This document shows, piece by piece, positions 3,398 to 48,813 of a stretch of DNA of 49,105 nt. Source of the stretch: a virus (lineage: Duplodnaviria > Heunggongvirae > Uroviricota > Caudoviricetes); the IMG/VR virus record IMGVR_UViG_3300003323_000621, positions 72,153-121,257 of that record; one strand, 5' to 3'. The position numbers and the translations under genes are program-made. The number at the start of each line of letters is the position of its first letter. Position 1 is the stretch's first letter. The notes under the pieces are model-generated. The model made no database searches, was not told the origin of the DNA, and was given only the letters and a program-made list of their open reading frames with translations.

Positions 3398-6300
3398 ATG
3401 GCTGAAGAAAGAAGCAATTTACAAGGAAATAATAGTAATACAGTTGTTTCTGCTATTTTTGGTTTGAATTTAGATAATGTTAATCTACAAATCAAAGATG
3501 GACAGCTTACTTATGCACTTAATGCTACTATAGAAGGATTTGATGGTAACATGGTTACTTATCAAAATGAAGAATCTAATATAAAGTGTACAGATTTTCC
3601 TGCTGGATTTAAAGTGATAGGACACTTAATTTTAAGTGAGCAAGATAAAATAGTATTCTTTATTTTTAATGAAGAAACTAAATCTTCTGAAATAGGATTT
3701 GTTGATATTAATACTTGTAAATATTCTAAACTAATTAATGCTGATTGTTTAAATTTTTCAATGCTTCATCCTATACAAGCAAAGTATAGGACTACAGATT
3801 GTACTACACAAATATTTTTTACAGATTTTTACAATCCAAGAAGGTATATTGATCTTAATGAGTTACCTTATAAAAAAGAAGGAGAAAATTGTGATGAACA
3901 AGTTACAAACATAATTGATTGTAATTTAATGCTTGTTCAAAGACAATTCAGTATACCTAATTTATTTGTTACTGAAGTAGTAGGAGAAGGATCTTTAGTA
4001 GAAGGTACTTATCAGTTTACTATTCAATATGCAGATGAATTAGGTAATGGGTTTAGTGATTACCATAGTGTAACTAATCCAGCTTCTATTTTTGCTGGAG
4101 TACAATCAAATAATTTTGATAATATTACATCCAAGGCTGTAAATATTCTTATTGATGGATTAGATAGGACATTTGAATATTATAATTTAGCTGTTATAAA
4201 AACAATTAATAATATTCCTAGTGTGGAGTTAATAGGTACATTTCCTATTAATTCTACCAGAGAAGAATATTTATATACAGGAGTAACTTCTACACAAGAA
4301 CCTCTATCTATAGATGAAATACTCTTAAAAAGAGCTATTTATCCTTATGCAAAGGAAATAGCTACTGTAGATAATGTATTGGTATATGGTAATTTAATTT
4401 CTGATAAAAGAATAAATTATCAAAGTATAGCTAATCAAATAGAACTTCAATGGGAAACATGGAAAGTTCCAGATAATATTTACTCTAAAGGAGAAAGTTC
4501 TGCTAATTTAAGAGGATATATGAGAGATGAAGTATATGCTTTTGAAATAGCATTCTTATTAAGAAGTGGTAAACAAACAGATGGTTTTCATATTCCAGGT
4601 AGAAAATCTAAGGCTTCTGATTTAGAAGTTGTAAACAATGATGATGTTATTTATGAAGAAGACAGTAAATGTGAAATAATTCAAAGAGTAGGTTTACCCA
4701 GATGGAAAGTATATAATACTGGATGTAGGATTGATTATTCTAAACAGTATAAAGACTTTATAAATAGAAATAGTCCTACAACTAATTTAGCTGTTGAATA
4801 TTCATATCACCCTGGACCTTTTCCTAATGATCCAGGTAATCCTCCTGAAGAACCAAACAATACTGATCCTTCTTGTTATACAGGTCCATATGAATATGGA
4901 TGTATGGGATATTATGAGTCTACTGAAGAGTATTCTTGTAATACAGAAATATGGGGAGATTTAGCTGGTGAAAAACAAAGATTTCATAAATTTCCTGATT
5001 GCCTTATATCTCCAATTCATGATGAAAATGGAAGCATATATCCTATAGGTATAAGGATAGATAGTACACAAATTAAAACATTAATTGATAATAGTAACTT
5101 AACTCAAGAAGAAAAAGATAACATAGTAGGATATAAAATTCTTAGAGGTAATAGAGCTAATAATAAATCAGTAGTTGCAAAAGGACTGTTATTTAATGTA
5201 GGAAAATATAATAAAGATACTTCTACTTATTTTTATCCAAATTATCCTTATAATGATTTAAGACCAGATCCTTTCCTAACTAATAAAGATATTAGTAGTG
5301 GTGTTGATTTAGGAGAAGAATTAAATTCTTCTTTTGAAGAAGTAGGTACTGAAGGTTCTAATTTAACTACATTTTATGATGCAGTTATACCAGCTTTTTC
5401 ATGGAAAAATAATAATGATACTATTGTGATACAGTACAATGGTACCTTTAATGGTGATCCTAAGCATTTTAAAAGTTTATATTTATTATTTAATAATATA
5501 GAAATATTTAATAGTAATATATTTTCTACTGATCCCAATGATTCATTTACTCTTATAACAGAATTAAAAAGAGTTGATAGTGCAGCAACTATTCTTATAA
5601 AAAATACTTTAAATATAATAGGTGCTAATCCTAAAACAATTAAGAAAACAATTACAATAAATTCTGTAGCTTTAAATACTCCTAATACAGTAACCTTAAA
5701 AGGTAAGGTTGTAAGAGGATCTTTACTTACTTCTCCTCCACCAGTAGAGGATGGTGAAATAACAGCTCAAGGTTATATAATGGGTTATAGAGCAGCTCCT
5801 AGTATAGCAGAAGATCCTGGGTTATTAAATGGTTTTATTTCTACAGATAGTAAAAAAAGATTTACTTTACATTCACCAGATACTTCATTTTATCAACCAT
5901 TTTTAGGAAATGTTCTTAAGATAGAATCTATAGAACAAGGTAAAAGTATCTCACATTTTGCACAGGTACAAAATCATGCAAGATATAAAATATATACAGA
6001 TAGCTTATTTTTAACTGCAATTGGTGCAGCTGCAGTAATTACTGGTTTATCAAGATGGGTATTAGTAGGTGTATCTAGTGGAGGTACATTAATTGATGGT
6101 AATGCTGCTATTAATACTTATCAAACATTAACATCTATATTCCAGAATCTTGTTCCATATATAAACTATGCTTATCAATTTAACTCTATAGGAAACTATA
6201 ATAAATCTATTAATGTTGATAATAATGGTTCTAAACAAAGATTAATTGATTTATCTTCTTATTTAATCCCAGGTATAGTTGGAGTAGGAGATACTAATTT

Positions 6301-38117: not shown

Positions 38118-38978
38118 ATGACTAACAAAGTATATAGATTTACTAATGGATTAGGAGCTTCTGTTCCAATAGTAGTATATACTCCAAACAACATGGATAG
38201 TTCTAAAAAGGACTATCCAGTTGTTATATTCTTAAGTGGTTCAGGAGAATTTTCTGATGATCCTAATATTGTAAAAGTTCAGAATAATTCTAATCATGCT
38301 AACTTACTTAAGTTTGGAGATTTAAGAGGATTTATAGTAGTAGCTCCACAATTTGTACCTTCACAGAATTATATAATTAAAGATAAATTTCCAGTACAAA
38401 CATGGCATCCTAATTTCCAGGATGGATTTTATATGAGAGATGTTATTAATTGGGTAAAAAGTAATCTTCCAATTAATACTAAAAGAATTTATCTTACAGG
38501 ATTAAGTGCAGGTGGTAATGGAACATGGGATACTATAATTAAATGGGAAGAATTAACTAATGAAATAGCAGCAGCTGTACCTTTATGTGCAGGATACCAA
38601 GATGGAGATTGGACTTTACCAGTAAAAAGTAAAGTTCCTATATGGGCTTTTCATGGATTAAAAGATGTTAATACTTCTCCTAACTCTACTATACAACAAG
38701 TAAACAAACTTAATAATGAGTTAGATATTAATCCTAAAGCAAGGATAACTTTATATCCCACTATGGATCATTATATTTGGAGTACTGTTTATAATACTCC
38801 AGAGTTATATGATTGGATGTTATCTCAAACAAATGATGGTACAACTATCCCTGAAGAACCTCCAGTAAAACAAGTAAAGGATAAATTATCATCTTCTGTA
38901 GTATTAAATGGAATAAGAGTAGACTTTACTATTACTACTTATAGTGATGGTTCTTCTACTGTAGAAAAAATAAACTAA
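38118..38978 (+). CDS. Alpha/beta hydrolase (carboxylesterase/phospholipase-like 'predicted peptidase' family)
   Basis: YPVVIFLSGSGE, the nucleophile elbow RIYLTGLSAGG, WAFHGLKD (Asp) and MDHYIW (His) give a complete Ser-Asp-His triad. Confidence 0.85.
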   Translation: MTNKVYRFTNGLGASVPIVVYTPNNMDSSKKDYPVVIFLSGSGEFSDDPNIVKVQNNSNHANLLKFGDLRGFIVVAPQFVPSQNYIIKDKFPVQTWHPNFQDGFYMRDVINWVKSNLPINTKRIYLTGLSAGGNGTWDTIIKWEELTNEIAAAVPLCAGYQDGDWTLPVKSKVPIWAFHGLKDVNTSPNSTIQQVNKLNNELDINPKARITLYPTMDHYIWSTVYNTPELYDWMLSQTNDGTTIPEEPPVKQVKDKLSSSVVLNGIRVDFTITTYSDGSSTVEKIN

Positions 38979-38999
38979 TAATTTAAAAAATAAAATAAG

Positions 39000-39926
39000 A
39001 TGGGCTGTAATATAACAGGAAATATACAGGGATCAGTAGTAGATAACATATTACTTCTTAATAAGAAGATGGATAAGGTATGGAAAAGAATATCTTATAT
39101 ACAGAATCATTCTGGTGGTGGTGGAACTGTAACAGGAGCTAATCAAGGTCTTTCTTTATCAGGTACAAATGTTGTATTAGGACAAACTTTAGGTGATATT
39201 AATAATCCTGCAATGATTAGTGGAGCAAAGGAAATTCCTTTTGATACAACAGGTCTTTCTTATTTAACATTTAATTATGCAGGAGCTTTTCCAGGTCAAA
39301 CAATAATACAACCAGCTGTTATACAAATACAAGGAAATTCAGAACAAAGTTCAATTCCTGCTTTAAGATTAATAGATAGTGCAAATTTATCTACATTTCT
39401 TACTTTATCTATAAGTGGTGATACAGCTTCTATATCTAAAAGTGGAGGATCTCCTGTGCTTCTTTTTCATGATGAAGGTACTATAACAATATCTCCTTCA
39501 TTTGGTCCTAGTGATGTAGGATTATGGATTCAAAATAGAAAAATAAGAATTGATGAAGGTAATGGAGGAGTAGGAAAAGTACTTATGTCTGATGCTGATG
39601 GTATAGGTACTTGGGCAAATCCTAATATAAATGTACTTTCTAGTAACAATTCTTTACCTTTACCTACTACTACTAATACATATCACACTTACACAGGTAC
39701 GGGATCAGGAACTTGGACATTACCTTTAATAACAATAGGATTAGAAGGATATAAAGTAACTATTATAAATGCATCTTCTGATATATTAATAGTAGCTACT
39801 TCAGGATCTGATATGATAATAGATCCTACAGGAACTTCTACTAATAGTTATACAATAGCATCTAAAGGTGTAATTACATTGTATAATAACTCTCTTAACT
39901 ATGTAGTTATACCAACTACTCCTTAA
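39000..39926 (+). CDS. Tail-fibre-like protein
   Basis: Shares a 34-aa module with the 1078-aa fibre. Contains GGVGKVLMSDADGIGTW and a C-terminal TWTLP...GYKVTIIN beta domain typical of fibre tips. Confidence 0.65.
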   Translation: MGCNITGNIQGSVVDNILLLNKKMDKVWKRISYIQNHSGGGGTVTGANQGLSLSGTNVVLGQTLGDINNPAMISGAKEIPFDTTGLSYLTFNYAGAFPGQTIIQPAVIQIQGNSEQSSIPALRLIDSANLSTFLTLSISGDTASISKSGGSPVLLFHDEGTITISPSFGPSDVGLWIQNRKIRIDEGNGGVGKVLMSDADGIGTWANPNINVLSSNNSLPLPTTTNTYHTYTGTGSGTWTLPLITIGLEGYKVTIINASSDILIVATSGSDMIIDPTGTSTNSYTIASKGVITLYNNSLNYVVIPTTP

Positions 39927-46913: not shown

Positions 46914-47327
46914 TTAATATACTATATTAGGATCATATTTATCTATATTTCCAGTAGAAACAGCAAGCTTTCTAAGAACTAATATAGAATATCTTCTATA
47001 ATTTTCTACTTCAGTTTGTTCAACACTTTGTGTAAGATTTTTAAATATATGATCTAATATACCTGCTTTAATTATATCAGGAACTGCCTCTTTTGAAAAG
47101 TTAAACTTATATGGGGATGATCCTACAAATACAAAACATTCATCTTGTTCTTTTACAGTAAATTCTCCTAAATCTTCTCCAGTTTCTGTTATTACAGATA
47201 CAGAATTATCATCATTTTTTCTTGCATATACATAACCACTGCAAGCATCTTGCATAAATCCTCTATTAGCAGTACTTTTAACTAATACAATATCCCCCTG
47301 CACATATACTTTTCTTTCCTCTTTCAT
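46914..47327 (-). CDS. Hypothetical protein
   Basis: 137-aa ORF abutting both neighbours. Confidence 0.65.
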   Translation of the reverse strand: MKEERKVYVQGDIVLVKSTANRGFMQDACSGYVYARKNDDNSVSVITETGEDLGEFTVKEQDECFVFVGSSPYKFNFSKEAVPDIIKAGILDHIFKNLTQSVEQTEVENYRRYSILVLRKLAVSTGNIDKYDPNIVY

Positions 47328-47555
47328 TTATATATATTTTGATTCCTGTAAATATAGTTCATATATTGTTAAACAGAACTCTTTAGTTTTATTTATACTT
47401 CTAAATGGAGAAGAGTTAGCTTTAATACTAAAGTTAAACTCTTCAGATATTAAATATACATCTGAACCTATATGTCCTCCATTAGTATGTTGTCCTCCAA
47501 GAGGAGGTGATATAATCTTCCACTTTATCTCATCTAGTATTTCCTGTGGTATCAT
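47328..47555 (-). CDS. Small GGQ-motif protein resembling the peptidyl-tRNA hydrolase domain of class I release factors/ArfB
   Basis: PPLGGQHTN...SDVYLISEEFNFSIKA...RSINKTKEFCL aligns by eye with the RF1 pattern GAGGQHVN..SAIRITHLPTGIVVEC..ERSQHKNKAKAL. Confidence 0.55.
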   Translation of the reverse strand: MIPQEILDEIKWKIISPPLGGQHTNGGHIGSDVYLISEEFNFSIKANSSPFRSINKTKEFCLTIYELYLQESKYI

Positions 47556-47758
47556 TACTTAATATTTTTGTAAATATATACTGTATCACATACACCATTT
47601 ATACAAGTTTCTTTTATTTGTGGAATTAATGGTGTTTTAGTGATAACATCATCTGATATAAATAACAAATCTACTAAGCCATATCCTACAAAAGCTACTA
47701 TTATTCCAAGTATTAAAAAAGCTATAAATGCTTCAGTAAAATTAAAACTTCCCATCAT
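47555..47758 (-). CDS. Small single-TM membrane protein
   Basis: FIAFLILGIIVAFVGYGLVDLLFI helix and a C-terminal CINGVCDTVYIY. Confidence 0.65.
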   Translation of the reverse strand: MMGSFNFTEAFIAFLILGIIVAFVGYGLVDLLFISDDVITKTPLIPQIKETCINGVCDTVYIYKNIK

Positions 47759-47764
47759 AATTTT

Positions 47765-48031
47765 CTATTTAATATTTTCTTCTGGATAAGCTGAAAGAAT
47801 TGATTCTTTATCTATAAAAGCATCCATTGCTCCATAATCTGGTTGATAAGCTTCAGCTACAGCTCTTTTAGTAGCAGCTTCAAGAGCAGCTTTTACATGA
47901 AGTTTGGTAAATTCTGTTAATGCTGTCATAAAATCTTCTCTATCTATAAGATATTTAGGATCACCCTCTTCAAATTGATAAAGATTAGAATATTTATTAA
48001 ATAACTCTTTTATTGTAGGTATCTTTTCCAT
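47765..48031 (-). CDS. Hypothetical protein, tandem paralog B
   Basis: MEKIPT...FTKLHVKAAL...ILSAYPEENIK. Confidence 0.75.
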   Translation of the reverse strand: MEKIPTIKELFNKYSNLYQFEEGDPKYLIDREDFMTALTEFTKLHVKAALEAATKRAVAEAYQPDYGAMDAFIDKESILSAYPEENIK

Positions 48032-48315
48032 TATTTTATATTTTCTTCAGGATATGCAGTTAAAATGAATTCTCTAGGTGCTACAAAGTAGAATCCTGCT
48101 TTTAAATCTTCATAATCATGTGATAATTTGTATGTAAAGACAGTTTTCTCAGCTACTGATTTGATAGCTGCCTTTACATGGAGTTTAGCAAATTTTATCA
48201 TTATTTTAGAAATATCTTCTTTTAGAATACAAGCTTCCATATTTCCAGGAAGAGTTTCTATAAAAGAGTAATTATTATTAGATATAAAATCTTCAGCTGT
48301 TGGAATTTTTTCCAT
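48031..48315 (-). CDS. Hypothetical protein, tandem paralog A
   Basis: MEKIPT...FAKLHVKAAI...ILTAYPEENIK. Confidence 0.75.
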   Translation of the reverse strand: MEKIPTAEDFISNNNYSFIETLPGNMEACILKEDISKIMIKFAKLHVKAAIKSVAEKTVFTYKLSHDYEDLKAGFYFVAPREFILTAYPEENIK

Positions 48316-48478
48316 CTTCTAAATTTTTAAAGGCTGTTTTAAGCATCTCAATATACCATTCTGCTCTTTCTTTAGTATCTACAGGATGTAATCTAAATGT
48401 TTGTACTCCTATAGTAAAGGTAGGTATAAAAGGATATTCTTCATCTAATCCTTTCTTTATATTATATATTATTTCCAT
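48293..48478 (-). CDS. Hypothetical protein
   Basis: 61-aa ORF with a 1-nt start/stop overlap upstream and a short overlap downstream. Confidence 0.6.
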   Translation of the reverse strand: MEIIYNIKKGLDEEYPFIPTFTIGVQTFRLHPVDTKERAEWYIEMLKTAFKNLEDGKNSNS

Positions 48479-48813
48479 TATAATAAGTCTCTAACTTTTG
48501 TTACATCAAATAGTCTAATACAACTAATAGTATGAATTCCACCTTCAAAATAAGGACACAAGTTATTAAACAAATCTATTTGATCTTCTGTTAAAAGATC
48601 TTTATATAGTTCATTTACATTTCCATCAACAAAATCTGATGCAGGCCAATTATGTTTAGACTTACACTTTTTAATAATTTTTATTATAGGTTTTAACTTT
48701 TCTAATTGAGCATCTGATATTTTATTAACTGAATGTACATAATCAGCATCATTTGTATCTGCTTCTATAATTAAATAGTTCATATATGTATCTTTTAATG
48801 AAAATGTCCACAA
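48478..48813 (-). CDS. Hypothetical protein
   Basis: 111-aa ORF. The start may be the internal ATG (MNYLIIEADTNDADY). Confidence 0.65.
   Translation of the reverse strand: MWTFSLKDTYMNYLIIEADTNDADYVHSVNKISDAQLEKLKPIIKIIKKCKSKHNWPASDFVDGNVNELYKDLLTEDQIDLFNNLCPYFEGGIHTISCIRLFDVTKVRDLL

What the first reader, a model, noticed from the sequence alone, without database searches (positions are those of the whole stretch)
47328..47555. Stand-alone 75-aa GGQ mini-protein: a possible phage ribosome-rescue or translation-interference factor
Seen: GGQ at 47490-47498 within PPLGGQHTN, then a beta-strand-like segment and RSINKTKEFCL. Established: class I release factors and ArfB hydrolyse peptidyl-tRNA through a GGQ loop in the context GGQHVN...(beta)...RSQxxNKxxA. 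RFs need codon-reading domains and ArfB needs a basic C-terminal tail. Neither is present here; the protein ends at YLQESKYI. Inference: this is an isolated catalytic domain that may release nascent chains without a stop codon, act with a partner, compete with host RFs or their methylase PrmC, or counter ribosome-stalling abortive-infection systems.
Basis: partly seen in the sequence, partly recalled or inferred. Interest (0 to 1): 0.72.

Follow-up and report, generated by a model that had tools for sequence, protein, structure and literature searches.

The report
Phage mini GGQ release-factor domain
A crAss-like phage carries a real, conserved 75-residue gene that is only the peptide-releasing GGQ core of a bacterial release factor. 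Such cut-down factors are already catalogued in many phages but have never been tested, so how they act on ribosomes is still open.

Summary
ORF 47328-47555 (-) encodes 75 aa with GGQ at 47490-47498.

The protein alone hits nothing in Pfam, PHROGs, NCBIfam or the PDB. An exhaustive search found about 30 homologs of 72-100 aa, and GGQ is invariant in all of them. The family profile matches RF1, RF2, mtRF1 and PrfH (E 4e-8). It aligns to RF domain 3 (hhalign 98%, E 2e-13). 28 of 30 members hit PF00472. An AlphaFold model (pLDDT 86) has the strand, GGQ loop, two strands and helix fold, and its best matches are release factors.

No member has codon-reading domains, an ArfB tail or the ArfB/ICT1 insertion. 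The helix face that is basic in RFs is acidic here.

The phage is a complete 121-kb crAss-like genome that also encodes a tmRNA. The model phage phi14:2 carries an unannotated member (g110, a middle gene) and a tmRNA.

Comparable mini RF-1 proteins exist in over 100 cultured phages and in PHROGs, and this scan found them before on other DNA. This is therefore a divergent new member of a catalogued but untested kind.

The most likely function is ribosome-bound, codon-independent peptidyl-tRNA hydrolysis. This is inferred, not shown. A decoy role is not excluded.

The parts
47328..47555 (-). Gene for the 75-aa stand-alone GGQ (RF-1 domain 3) mini-protein, P0001
   Evidence: ORF and translation. 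About 30 homologs. Profile match to release factors. AlphaFold model with pLDDT 86.2.
47490..47498 (-). Codons for G20-G21-Q22, the catalytic GGQ motif. It lies in the low-confidence loop (residues 16-31) between strand 1 and strand 2.
   Evidence: Invariant in all 30 aligned homologs and in phi14:2 g110. It aligns with the GGQ of RF1 and RF2.
47379..47402 (-). Codons for R52-E59 (RSINKTKE). This is the counterpart of the RSQxxN(K/R)E loop and helix start that helps form the RF catalytic site.
   Evidence: R52 is at least 90% conserved in the family, and S53 and E59 are invariant in the closest six homologs. The motif aligns to RSQxxNK of the RFs. In this protein the Q and N positions are I and T.
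47343..47396 (-). Codons for the C-terminal helix, residues 54-71. This is the counterpart of RF helix alpha-7 but is short and acidic/hydrophobic (EFCLTIYELYLQE).
   Evidence: Secondary structure of the model. Charge comparison with RFs.
47555..47758 (-). Upstream 67-aa predicted membrane protein whose stop overlaps the GGQ gene start. It is context only and is not conserved next to homologs.
46914..47327 (-). Downstream 137-aa protein of unknown family that starts right after the GGQ gene stop. It is context only and is not conserved next to homologs.

Best explanation
This is a genuine phage gene. Its product is the isolated peptidyl-hydrolase domain (domain 3, Pfam RF-1 or 'GGQ' domain) of a bacterial class I release factor, reduced to short helix, strand, GGQ loop, strand, strand and helix.

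Most likely mechanism (inferred): it enters the large-subunit A site of ribosomes whose A site is vacant. Its GGQ loop orders in the peptidyl-transferase centre and triggers hydrolysis of the P-site peptidyl-tRNA without reading a codon, as ArfB, ICT1 and mtRF-R do.

It has no decoding domains and no mRNA-channel tail. Targeting must therefore come from something else. Candidates are an unidentified partner, a substrate with an open A site such as split 50S-peptidyl-tRNA complexes, or simply timing and dose during infection. The purpose would be to free ribosomes and tRNAs in the infected cell, alongside the tmRNA that the same phage encodes.

Shown: homology, fold, invariant GGQ, minimal architecture and phage distribution. 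Inferred: ribosome binding, catalysis, substrate and biological role.
For: Homology and fold:
- The family profile hits RF1, RF2, mtRF1 and PrfH at E 4e-8 to 1e-5, and ArfB and C12orf65 at about 1e-3. The alignments run from GGQ through RSQxxNkE.
- hhalign against RF domain 3 gives probability 98.0%, E 2.3e-13, over 61 columns.
- 28 of 30 members hit PF00472.
- Among longer proteins only canonical PCRF+RF-1 factors match.
- The model has pLDDT 86.2 and pTM 0.71, with topology H4-9, E11-15, loop, E32-37, E42-47, H54-71.
- Foldseek's top hits are RF2, RF1, PrfH and C12orf65, with probability up to 0.99 and TM about 0.65. RF1 is the top VIA hit at Z 6.3.

Constraint on the catalytic motif:
- GGQ is invariant across 30 homologs that are only 23-48% identical to this protein. 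The R and N of the second catalytic-site loop are at least 90% conserved.
- GGQ is also kept in phi14:2 g110 and in Pseudomonas phage Boevelstad.

Context:
- The same complete genome encodes a full-length tmRNA (Rfam 78.7 bits).
- phi14:2 has both a family member and a tmRNA. Four TerL relatives have neither.
- phi14:2 g110 is a middle gene with a mapped promoter (bioRxiv 10.1101/2020.03.07.982082), so at least that member is expressed.

Established knowledge: GGQ-domain catalysis takes place only in the ribosomal peptidyl-transferase centre.
Against: - ArfB lacking its last 10 residues has no detectable hydrolase activity, and ArfB function depends mainly on its C-terminal extension (PMC3950681). 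A bare GGQ domain is therefore expected to bind 70S ribosomes poorly.
- The segment from GGQ to the helix is slightly acidic in this family (mean net charge -1.7) against +1 to +3 in RFs. The two basic positions of the RF helix are replaced by Glu and an aromatic residue.
- In this particular protein two positions of the RSQxxN loop are changed (Q to I, N to T).
- No conserved neighbouring gene that could be a recruiting partner was found.
- The phage encodes no SmpB, Pth, RtcB or PCRF domain.
- The tmRNA link is not general. None of 38 tmRNA-pattern-bearing viral records have the gene (with positive controls). Boevelstad has a mini-GGQ but no tmRNA.
- No biochemical data exist for any phage mini-GGQ protein in the library searched.
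Confidence: 0.5

Rival explanations
1. Non-catalytic mimic or decoy. The mini-domain occupies the A site or peptidyl-transferase centre, or titrates a protein that recognises the GGQ domain, such as the RF glutamine methyltransferase PrmC. It would thereby modulate host termination or translation rather than release peptides.
For: The protein lacks every known ribosome-anchoring element. The RF-helix face is acidic. This protein has a degenerate RSQxxN loop. Invariant GGQ would also be required for recognition by PrmC (established knowledge that PrmC methylates the GGQ glutamine; Foldseek lists the RF1-PrmC complex 2b3t among the matches). Earlier unchecked notes of this scan describe related phage mini-domains in which GGQ is replaced by RRW or GMQ, which suggests binding roles in some lineages.
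Against: In this subfamily GGQ and the second catalytic-site loop are conserved as in active hydrolases. A pure blocker would not need an intact catalytic glutamine. No evidence of any interaction with PrmC was obtained.
Confidence: 0.2
2. Repurposed fold. The small alpha-beta-beta-beta-alpha domain now binds RNA or another target away from the ribosome, and GGQ is kept for a structural reason.
For: VIA-align ranks dsRNA-binding domains (Dicer, DRB4, Staufen) at Z 5-6, interleaved with the release factors. Genomic neighbours are nucleotide-metabolism and replication genes (dUTPase, AAA ATPase, NAPRTase, ligase) rather than translation genes.
Against: Sequence-profile homology is specific to RF-1. 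The fold resemblance to dsRBDs is a common small arrangement at Z below 8 (note). Invariance of exactly the catalytic tripeptide in a flexible loop across 30 diverged sequences is hard to explain structurally.
Confidence: 0.1
3. Not a functional gene: a chance ORF or a decaying fragment of a captured release-factor gene.
For: The GGQ tripeptide by itself is expected by chance. The single sequence has no hit in Pfam, PHROGs, NCBIfam or the PDB.
Against: About 30 homologs have a constant length of 72-81 aa (a few with longer called N-termini) on independent large phage contigs. Conservation is domain-wide and the model is confident. The gene sits in a tight operon. phi14:2 g110 has a mapped promoter.
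Confidence: 0.02

Closest known systems
[quoted passage not shown]
   Same: The order of elements is the same: strand, GGQ loop, strand, strand, RSQxxN loop, helix. These are the best sequence-profile and structure matches. There is no insertion between strands 2 and 3.
   Different: The protein has no domains 1, 2 or 4 (no PCRF, no codon-reading motifs, no switch loop). The helix is shorter and lacks the basic residues. This protein has I and T at the Q and N positions of RSQxxN.
ArfB (YaeJ) and mitochondrial ICT1: codon-independent GGQ rescue factors
   Same: They are stand-alone GGQ-domain proteins that release peptides without a stop codon. This is the functional model proposed here.
   Different: ArfB and ICT1 need a linker plus a basic C-terminal helix in the mRNA channel, and they carry an alpha-i insertion between the strands (PMC3950681). 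Both features are absent here. The profile match to ArfB is weaker (E about 2e-3) and partial.
mtRF-R (C12orf65) with MTRES1, on split mitoribosomal large subunits
   Same: It is a small GGQ protein acting on large-subunit-peptidyl-tRNA complexes together with a partner. It is a structural match (7a5h Z 5.8, 2rsm).
   Different: mtRF-R has a C-terminal extension and a defined partner. No partner or extension was found here.
PrfH (RF-H), the RtcB-linked rescue factor for damaged ribosomes
   Same: It is a truncated release-factor relative with GGQ. It matches the profile at E 1.4e-5 and by fold.
   Different: PrfH is about 200 aa, keeps a decoding-site domain and is paired with RtcB. This phage has no RtcB and the protein is 75 aa.
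Phage stand-alone RF-1-domain proteins. Examples: PHROG phrog_20323 (73 positions), phrog_3122 and phrog_35727; Pseudomonas phage Boevelstad CDS0189; phiPsa267-type 'peptide chain release factor 1'; Vibrio and Rhizobium phage 'RF-1 domain peptide chain release factor'.
   Same: They share the minimal architecture and size, GGQ is kept, and they sit among small early or middle phage genes. The A2 profile detects the Boevelstad protein at E 2.3e-12.
   Different: This crAss-like subfamily is divergent. P0001 hits no PHROG at E up to 10, and its relatives hit phrog_20323 only at 2e-4 to 0.3. It has its own conserved helix motif, (E/N)FCxTvFELyLxE. None of these phage proteins has been tested functionally, as far as the library shows.
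Cellulophaga phage phi14:2 g110 (YP_008242336.1, 73 aa, annotated hypothetical protein)
   Same: It is a member of the same subfamily: hhalign probability 98.6%, E 1.3e-15, with GGQ and the (K/R)SxxKNKE motif present. The phage is crAss-like and also has a tmRNA.
   Different: It is 21% identical to the window protein over the 58 columns aligned by hhalign. It lies at the head of the leftward middle transcription unit rather than in the replication-side block.

Membership tests
RF-1 domain superfamily (Pfam PF00472; GGQ peptidyl-hydrolase domain) | Significant sequence similarity to the RF-1 domain profile | tested here: met
   P0001 alone has no Pfam hit at E up to 10. Its family does match: 28 of 30 members hit PF00472 (best 1.2e-8). 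The family profile against solved RFs gives E 3.6e-8. hhalign against RF domain 3 gives probability 98.0%, E 2.3e-13.
RF-1 domain superfamily (Pfam PF00472; GGQ peptidyl-hydrolase domain) | GGQ tripeptide in the loop after the first strand | tested here: met
   G20-G21-Q22 are invariant in 30 of 30 homologs and align with the RF GGQ.
RF-1 domain superfamily (Pfam PF00472; GGQ peptidyl-hydrolase domain) | Second catalytic-site loop, RSQxxN, before the long helix | tested here: inconclusive
   The family keeps R (at least 90%), mostly S and Q, and N (at least 90%). This protein has R-S-I-N-K-T, with Q and N replaced. The functional consequence is unknown.
RF-1 domain superfamily (Pfam PF00472; GGQ peptidyl-hydrolase domain) | Three-stranded sheet plus helix fold with a flexible GGQ loop | tested here: met
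   AlphaFold model with pLDDT 86.2. Foldseek's top hits are RF2 and RF1, probability up to 0.99 and TM 0.65, although E is 0.1-1 for this short model. VIA's top hit is RF1 at Z 6.3, interleaved with dsRBD folds.
RF-1 domain superfamily (Pfam PF00472; GGQ peptidyl-hydrolase domain) | Ribosome-dependent peptidyl-tRNA hydrolase activity | not testable with these tools
   This needs biochemistry.
[quoted passage not shown] | PCRF domain and codon-reading domains 2 and 4 (PxT or SPF motif, switch loop) | tested here: not met
   The protein is 75 aa. There is no PF03462 anywhere in the genome. Among longer proteins only canonical RFs match, with no extended forms of this family.
ArfB / ICT1 | Linker plus basic C-terminal helix that binds the empty mRNA channel | tested here: not met
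   The protein ends four residues after the domain helix. No member of the family has a tail. The net charge is -2.
ArfB / ICT1 | Alpha-i insertion between the strands of the GGQ domain | tested here: not met
   Strands 32-37 and 42-47 are joined by a 4-residue turn. The feature is defined in PMC3950681.
PrfH-RtcB rescue module | A factor of about 200 aa with a decoding-site domain, encoded next to RtcB | tested here: not met
   The protein is 75 aa, and the genome has no RtcB.
Catalogued phage mini RF-1 proteins (PHROG phrog_20323, phrog_3122, phrog_35727) | Match to the PHROG profile | tested here: inconclusive
   P0001 has no PHROG hit at E up to 10. Relatives hit phrog_20323, phrog_19918 or phrog_35727 weakly, at 5e-5 to 0.3. 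The A2 profile detects Boevelstad, a phrog_35727 member, at E 2.3e-12. The architecture is the same, but whether the two groups share a phage ancestor or were captured separately is unresolved.

The most novel reading that the evidence does not exclude
Some crAss-like phages carry a two-part ribosome-rescue or takeover kit of their own. One part is an abundant phage tmRNA. The other is a free, tail-less GGQ hydrolase that reaches the peptidyl-transferase centre by a recruitment mode not yet described. That mode could be a new partner, action on split 50S-peptidyl-tRNA complexes, or action on ribosomes arrested by host defence or by phage-induced mRNA decay. This would be the smallest known self-standing release factor and a new route to codon-independent termination.
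Probability: 0.2. Interest if true: 0.8.

Novelty: new member of a known kind. Interest (0 to 1): 0.5.

Why it matters
Every characterised GGQ factor (RF1, RF2, ArfB, ICT1, mtRF-R, PrfH) owes its ribosome binding and specificity to parts outside the GGQ domain. A conserved family that is nothing but that domain raises a clear question: how does it find and act on ribosomes, or is it a mimic?

This report adds three things:
- There is a divergent subfamily in crAss-like phages that standard libraries miss.
- A member exists in the culturable model phage phi14:2 (g110), where transcription data and a host system already exist.
- In the two complete crAss-like genomes that have the gene, a phage tmRNA is also present.

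Together these make the question directly testable. Because similar mini-domains are already annotated in many phages, the discovery value lies in function, not in existence.

Tried and rejected
- **Single-sequence searches of P0001.** Pfam, PHROGs, NCBIfam, the PDB and the word-indexed protein search gave nothing. Megablast and tblastn against phages also gave nothing.
- **First structure model.** The model made without an alignment was poor (pLDDT 53) and was not used.
- **P0003.** This 1026-aa repeat protein is a spurious hit with no GGQ domain.
- **IMG/VR scans.** Scans with family patterns and with the terminase found no relatives.
- **Metagenome contigs of homologs.** Their records are not held, so they could not be searched for tmRNA. 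No tmRNA lies within 6 kb of the gene on those contigs.
- **Neighbour comparison across six loci.** No conserved partner was found. Only a 111-aa phrog_8428-like gene lies nearby in two loci, on opposite sides.
- **General tmRNA link.** This was rejected. None of 38 viral records with a tmRNA 3' pattern have the gene (controls). Boevelstad has the gene but no tmRNA.
- **Mycobacteriophage Thibault gp119 and relatives.** These tblastn hits are spurious, with no GGQ.
- **'Bacteriophage sp.' MT836423 and MT836888.** They encode full-length RF2, not mini-proteins.
- **Atlas search by features.** It returned restriction-enzyme clusters at scores typical of chance.
- **Programmed frameshift or fusion with flanking ORFs.** This was considered and rejected. 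The flanking genes are a membrane peptide and an unrelated 137-aa protein, and the homologs have different neighbours.
- **Complex prediction.** None was run, because no specific partner is claimed.
- **Expression check.** None was attempted on sequencing runs.

Full report
**Observation.** The minus-strand ORF 47328-47555 encodes 75 residues (P0001). GGQ is residues 20-22 (47490-47498), inside SPPLGGQHTN. The ATG overlaps the stop of the upstream 67-aa gene by one base, and the next gene starts immediately after the stop. The ORF is therefore part of a tightly packed minus-strand operon that continues into a dUTPase (phrog_135, E 5e-60) and an AAA ATPase. The tripeptide alone means little: GGQ occurs twice in the window's 16,113-aa proteome, with 2.5 expected.

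**Homology.** On its own the protein hits nothing in Pfam, PHROGs, NCBIfam (E up to 10) or the PDB. An exhaustive phmmer search of 1.84 billion representatives found five true homologs of 74-81 aa, plus one spurious repeat protein. A profile search raised this to about 30 proteins, mostly 72-82 aa.
- In the 30-sequence alignment GGQ is the only invariant block. L35, R52, the N of RSQxxN, and F65 are at least 90% conserved.
- The six-sequence profile hits solved RF1, RF2, mtRF1 and mtRF1a-like factors at E 4e-8 to 1e-7. It hits PrfH at 1e-5, and ArfB and C12orf65 at about 1e-3. The alignments run from the strand before GGQ to the helix after RSQxxN.
- 28 of the 30 members individually hit PF00472 (best 1.2e-8).
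- A search among longer proteins returned only canonical PCRF+RF-1 release factors.
- A profile-profile comparison with domain 3 cut from nine of those factors gives probability 98.0%, E 2.3e-13, over 61 columns.

**Structure.** With the family alignment AlphaFold gives pLDDT 86.2 and pTM 0.71. The topology is helix 4-9, strand 11-15, a lower-confidence GGQ loop, strands 32-37 and 42-47, and helix 54-71.
- Foldseek's best matches are almost all RF2, RF1, PrfH and C12orf65 (probability up to 0.99, TM about 0.65, E 0.1-1 for this short query).
- VIA-align puts RF1 first (Z 6.3). mtRF-R, mtRF1, PrfH, RF2 and ArfB follow at Z 4.7-5.9, interleaved with dsRNA-binding domains that share the same simple arrangement.
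- Fold evidence alone would be weak. Together with the sequence evidence it is consistent.

**What is missing.** No member has a PCRF or decoding domain or an ArfB-type linker and basic tail, and the protein ends four residues after the domain helix. Strands 2 and 3 are joined by a tight turn. The alpha-i insertion that distinguishes ArfB and ICT1 from RFs (PMC3950681) is therefore absent, and the domain is of the RF1/RF2 type. From GGQ to the helix the family has a mean net charge of -1.7, against +1 to +3 in RFs. The two basic helix positions of RFs are Glu and an aromatic residue here. In the window protein the Q and N of RSQxxN are I and T.

**The phage.** The window is bases 72153-121257 of a 121,257-bp IMG/VR record. 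The record has direct terminal repeats, is rated 100% complete and is 28% GC.
- It has giant virion proteins (one of 4255 aa) and a terminase. The nearest terminase is that of Leptolyngbya phage Lbo-JY46 (38%), followed by Crassvirales and by Cellulophaga and Flavobacterium phages at about 29%. It is a crAss-like phage.
- It encodes five tRNAs and a full-length tmRNA (RF00023, 78.7 bits, model positions 1-374).
- It has no SmpB, Pth, RtcB or PCRF.

**Relatives and context.**
- Homologs lie on large phage-like contigs of 40-133 kb, among small genes and nucleotide or replication genes (NAPRTase, ligase, SET, bpMoxR). No neighbour is conserved.
- Cellulophaga phage phi14:2, the crAss-like model phage, carries an unannotated member, g110 (73 aa). 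The evidence is hhalign probability 98.6% with E 1.3e-15, profile E 8e-19 and the sequence itself.
- The phi14:2 transcription study lists g110 as a middle gene with its own mapped promoter read by host RNA polymerase (bioRxiv 10.1101/2020.03.07.982082).
- phi14:2 also has a tmRNA-like gene at 4031-4502 (46 bits against a cut-off of 47, E 1.8e-18; ARAGORN tag GSSVQKLAMVA).
- Four other terminase relatives have neither the gene nor a tmRNA.
- The link is not general. None of 38 viral records with a similar tmRNA 3' end have the gene, while the own genome, phi14:2 and Boevelstad all ring as controls.

**How new is it?** PHROGs already holds phage families named 'RF-1 domain peptide chain release factor', one of them only 73 positions long (phrog_20323). 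Pseudomonas phage Boevelstad has a 75-aa GGQ protein. Its relatives occur in 111 phage records, many annotated as peptide chain release factor, although some of those are full-length factors or unannotated fragments. RF-1-domain genes have been noted in mycobacterial and mycobacteriophage tRNA arrays next to tmRNA and Pth (PMC5966550). This scan has also reported mini GGQ domains on other phage DNA, including variants without GGQ (unchecked notes). I found no functional study, and the survey of RF evolution I read does not mention phage forms (PMC6514570). The kind is therefore catalogued but untested. This subfamily is a divergent new member that the libraries miss.

**Mechanism.** Invariance of the catalytic tripeptide and conservation of the second catalytic-site loop, across sequences 23-48% identical to this protein, argue that the function depends on GGQ chemistry or on GGQ recognition. 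GGQ domains catalyse only inside the peptidyl-transferase centre (established knowledge). The best reading is therefore codon-independent release on ribosomes with a free A site (confidence about 0.5). The obstacle is targeting. ArfB without its tail is inactive, and this family is not basic. Either a partner exists or the substrate has an exposed A site, as in split large subunits handled by mtRF-R and MTRES1. A decoy for the A site or for PrmC (0.2) and a repurposed fold (0.1) remain possible. A chance ORF is excluded for practical purposes.

**Verdict.** This is a new member of a known but uncharacterised kind, of moderate interest. It has a tractable experimental entry point in phi14:2 g110.

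Noticed in passing
L010:1501-1970 (+), which is NC_021806.1 about 4031-4502: Cellulophaga phage phi14:2 has an unannotated tmRNA-like gene (Rfam 46 bits against a cut-off of 47, E 1.8e-18; ARAGORN tag GSSVQKLAMVA). It lies in the g004-g006 intergenic interval. The phi14:2 transcription preprint reports very abundant rightward 'long non-coding RNAs' of unknown function there, so one of them is probably this tmRNA.
   Followed up: partly
Outside the window: genome bases 38819-39239 (-), which is L001:6818-7240 (-): The same phage genome encodes a full-length tmRNA (RF00023, 78.7 bits) with a 27-residue acidic tag ending EAVMA. It also has five tRNAs (Arg, Met, Leu, Asn, Trp). No SmpB gene was found.
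   Followed up: partly
L013:2456-2683 (+), which is PQ464592.1 89876-90103: Pseudomonas phage Boevelstad CDS0189, annotated hypothetical, is a 75-aa stand-alone GGQ domain closer to canonical RFs (GGQQVG ... ERSQYKNK). Relatives occur in 111 phage records, many annotated as peptide chain release factor. This phage has no tmRNA.
   Followed up: partly
P0030 (140 aa, on a 26-kb metagenome contig): One homolog is called as a fusion. An N-terminal piece has a DMDGV motif, as in HAD-type 5'(3')-deoxyribonucleotidases, and the mini GGQ domain follows it. This may be a real fusion or a frameshifted or merged gene call.
   Followed up: no
window 47765-48031 (-) and 48031-48315 (-): Two adjacent small genes (88 and 94 aa) are tandem paralogues. 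Both start MEKIPT, share the block KLHVKAA and end AYPEENIK. Neither has a PHROG match.
   Followed up: no
window 48478-48813 (-): This 111-aa protein (phrog_8428, E 1.6e-10) has a 49%-identical homolog about 600 bp from the mini-GGQ gene on contig ERZ869921 NODE_33 (L005:6827-7132). It is the only other gene shared near the GGQ gene in two loci, and it lies on opposite sides of it.
   Followed up: partly
L017:2790-3908 (+) and L018:166-1287 (+): The unannotated 'Bacteriophage sp.' fragments from human faeces (MT836423, MT836888) encode full-length RF2-like factors of 372-373 aa. It was not determined whether these are phage genes or bacterial DNA.
   Followed up: no
window 46914-47327 (-): The 137-aa protein encoded directly after the GGQ gene has no family match. 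It starts with a short beta-rich segment (VYVQGDIVLVKS...). It is not found next to homologs elsewhere.
   Followed up: partly
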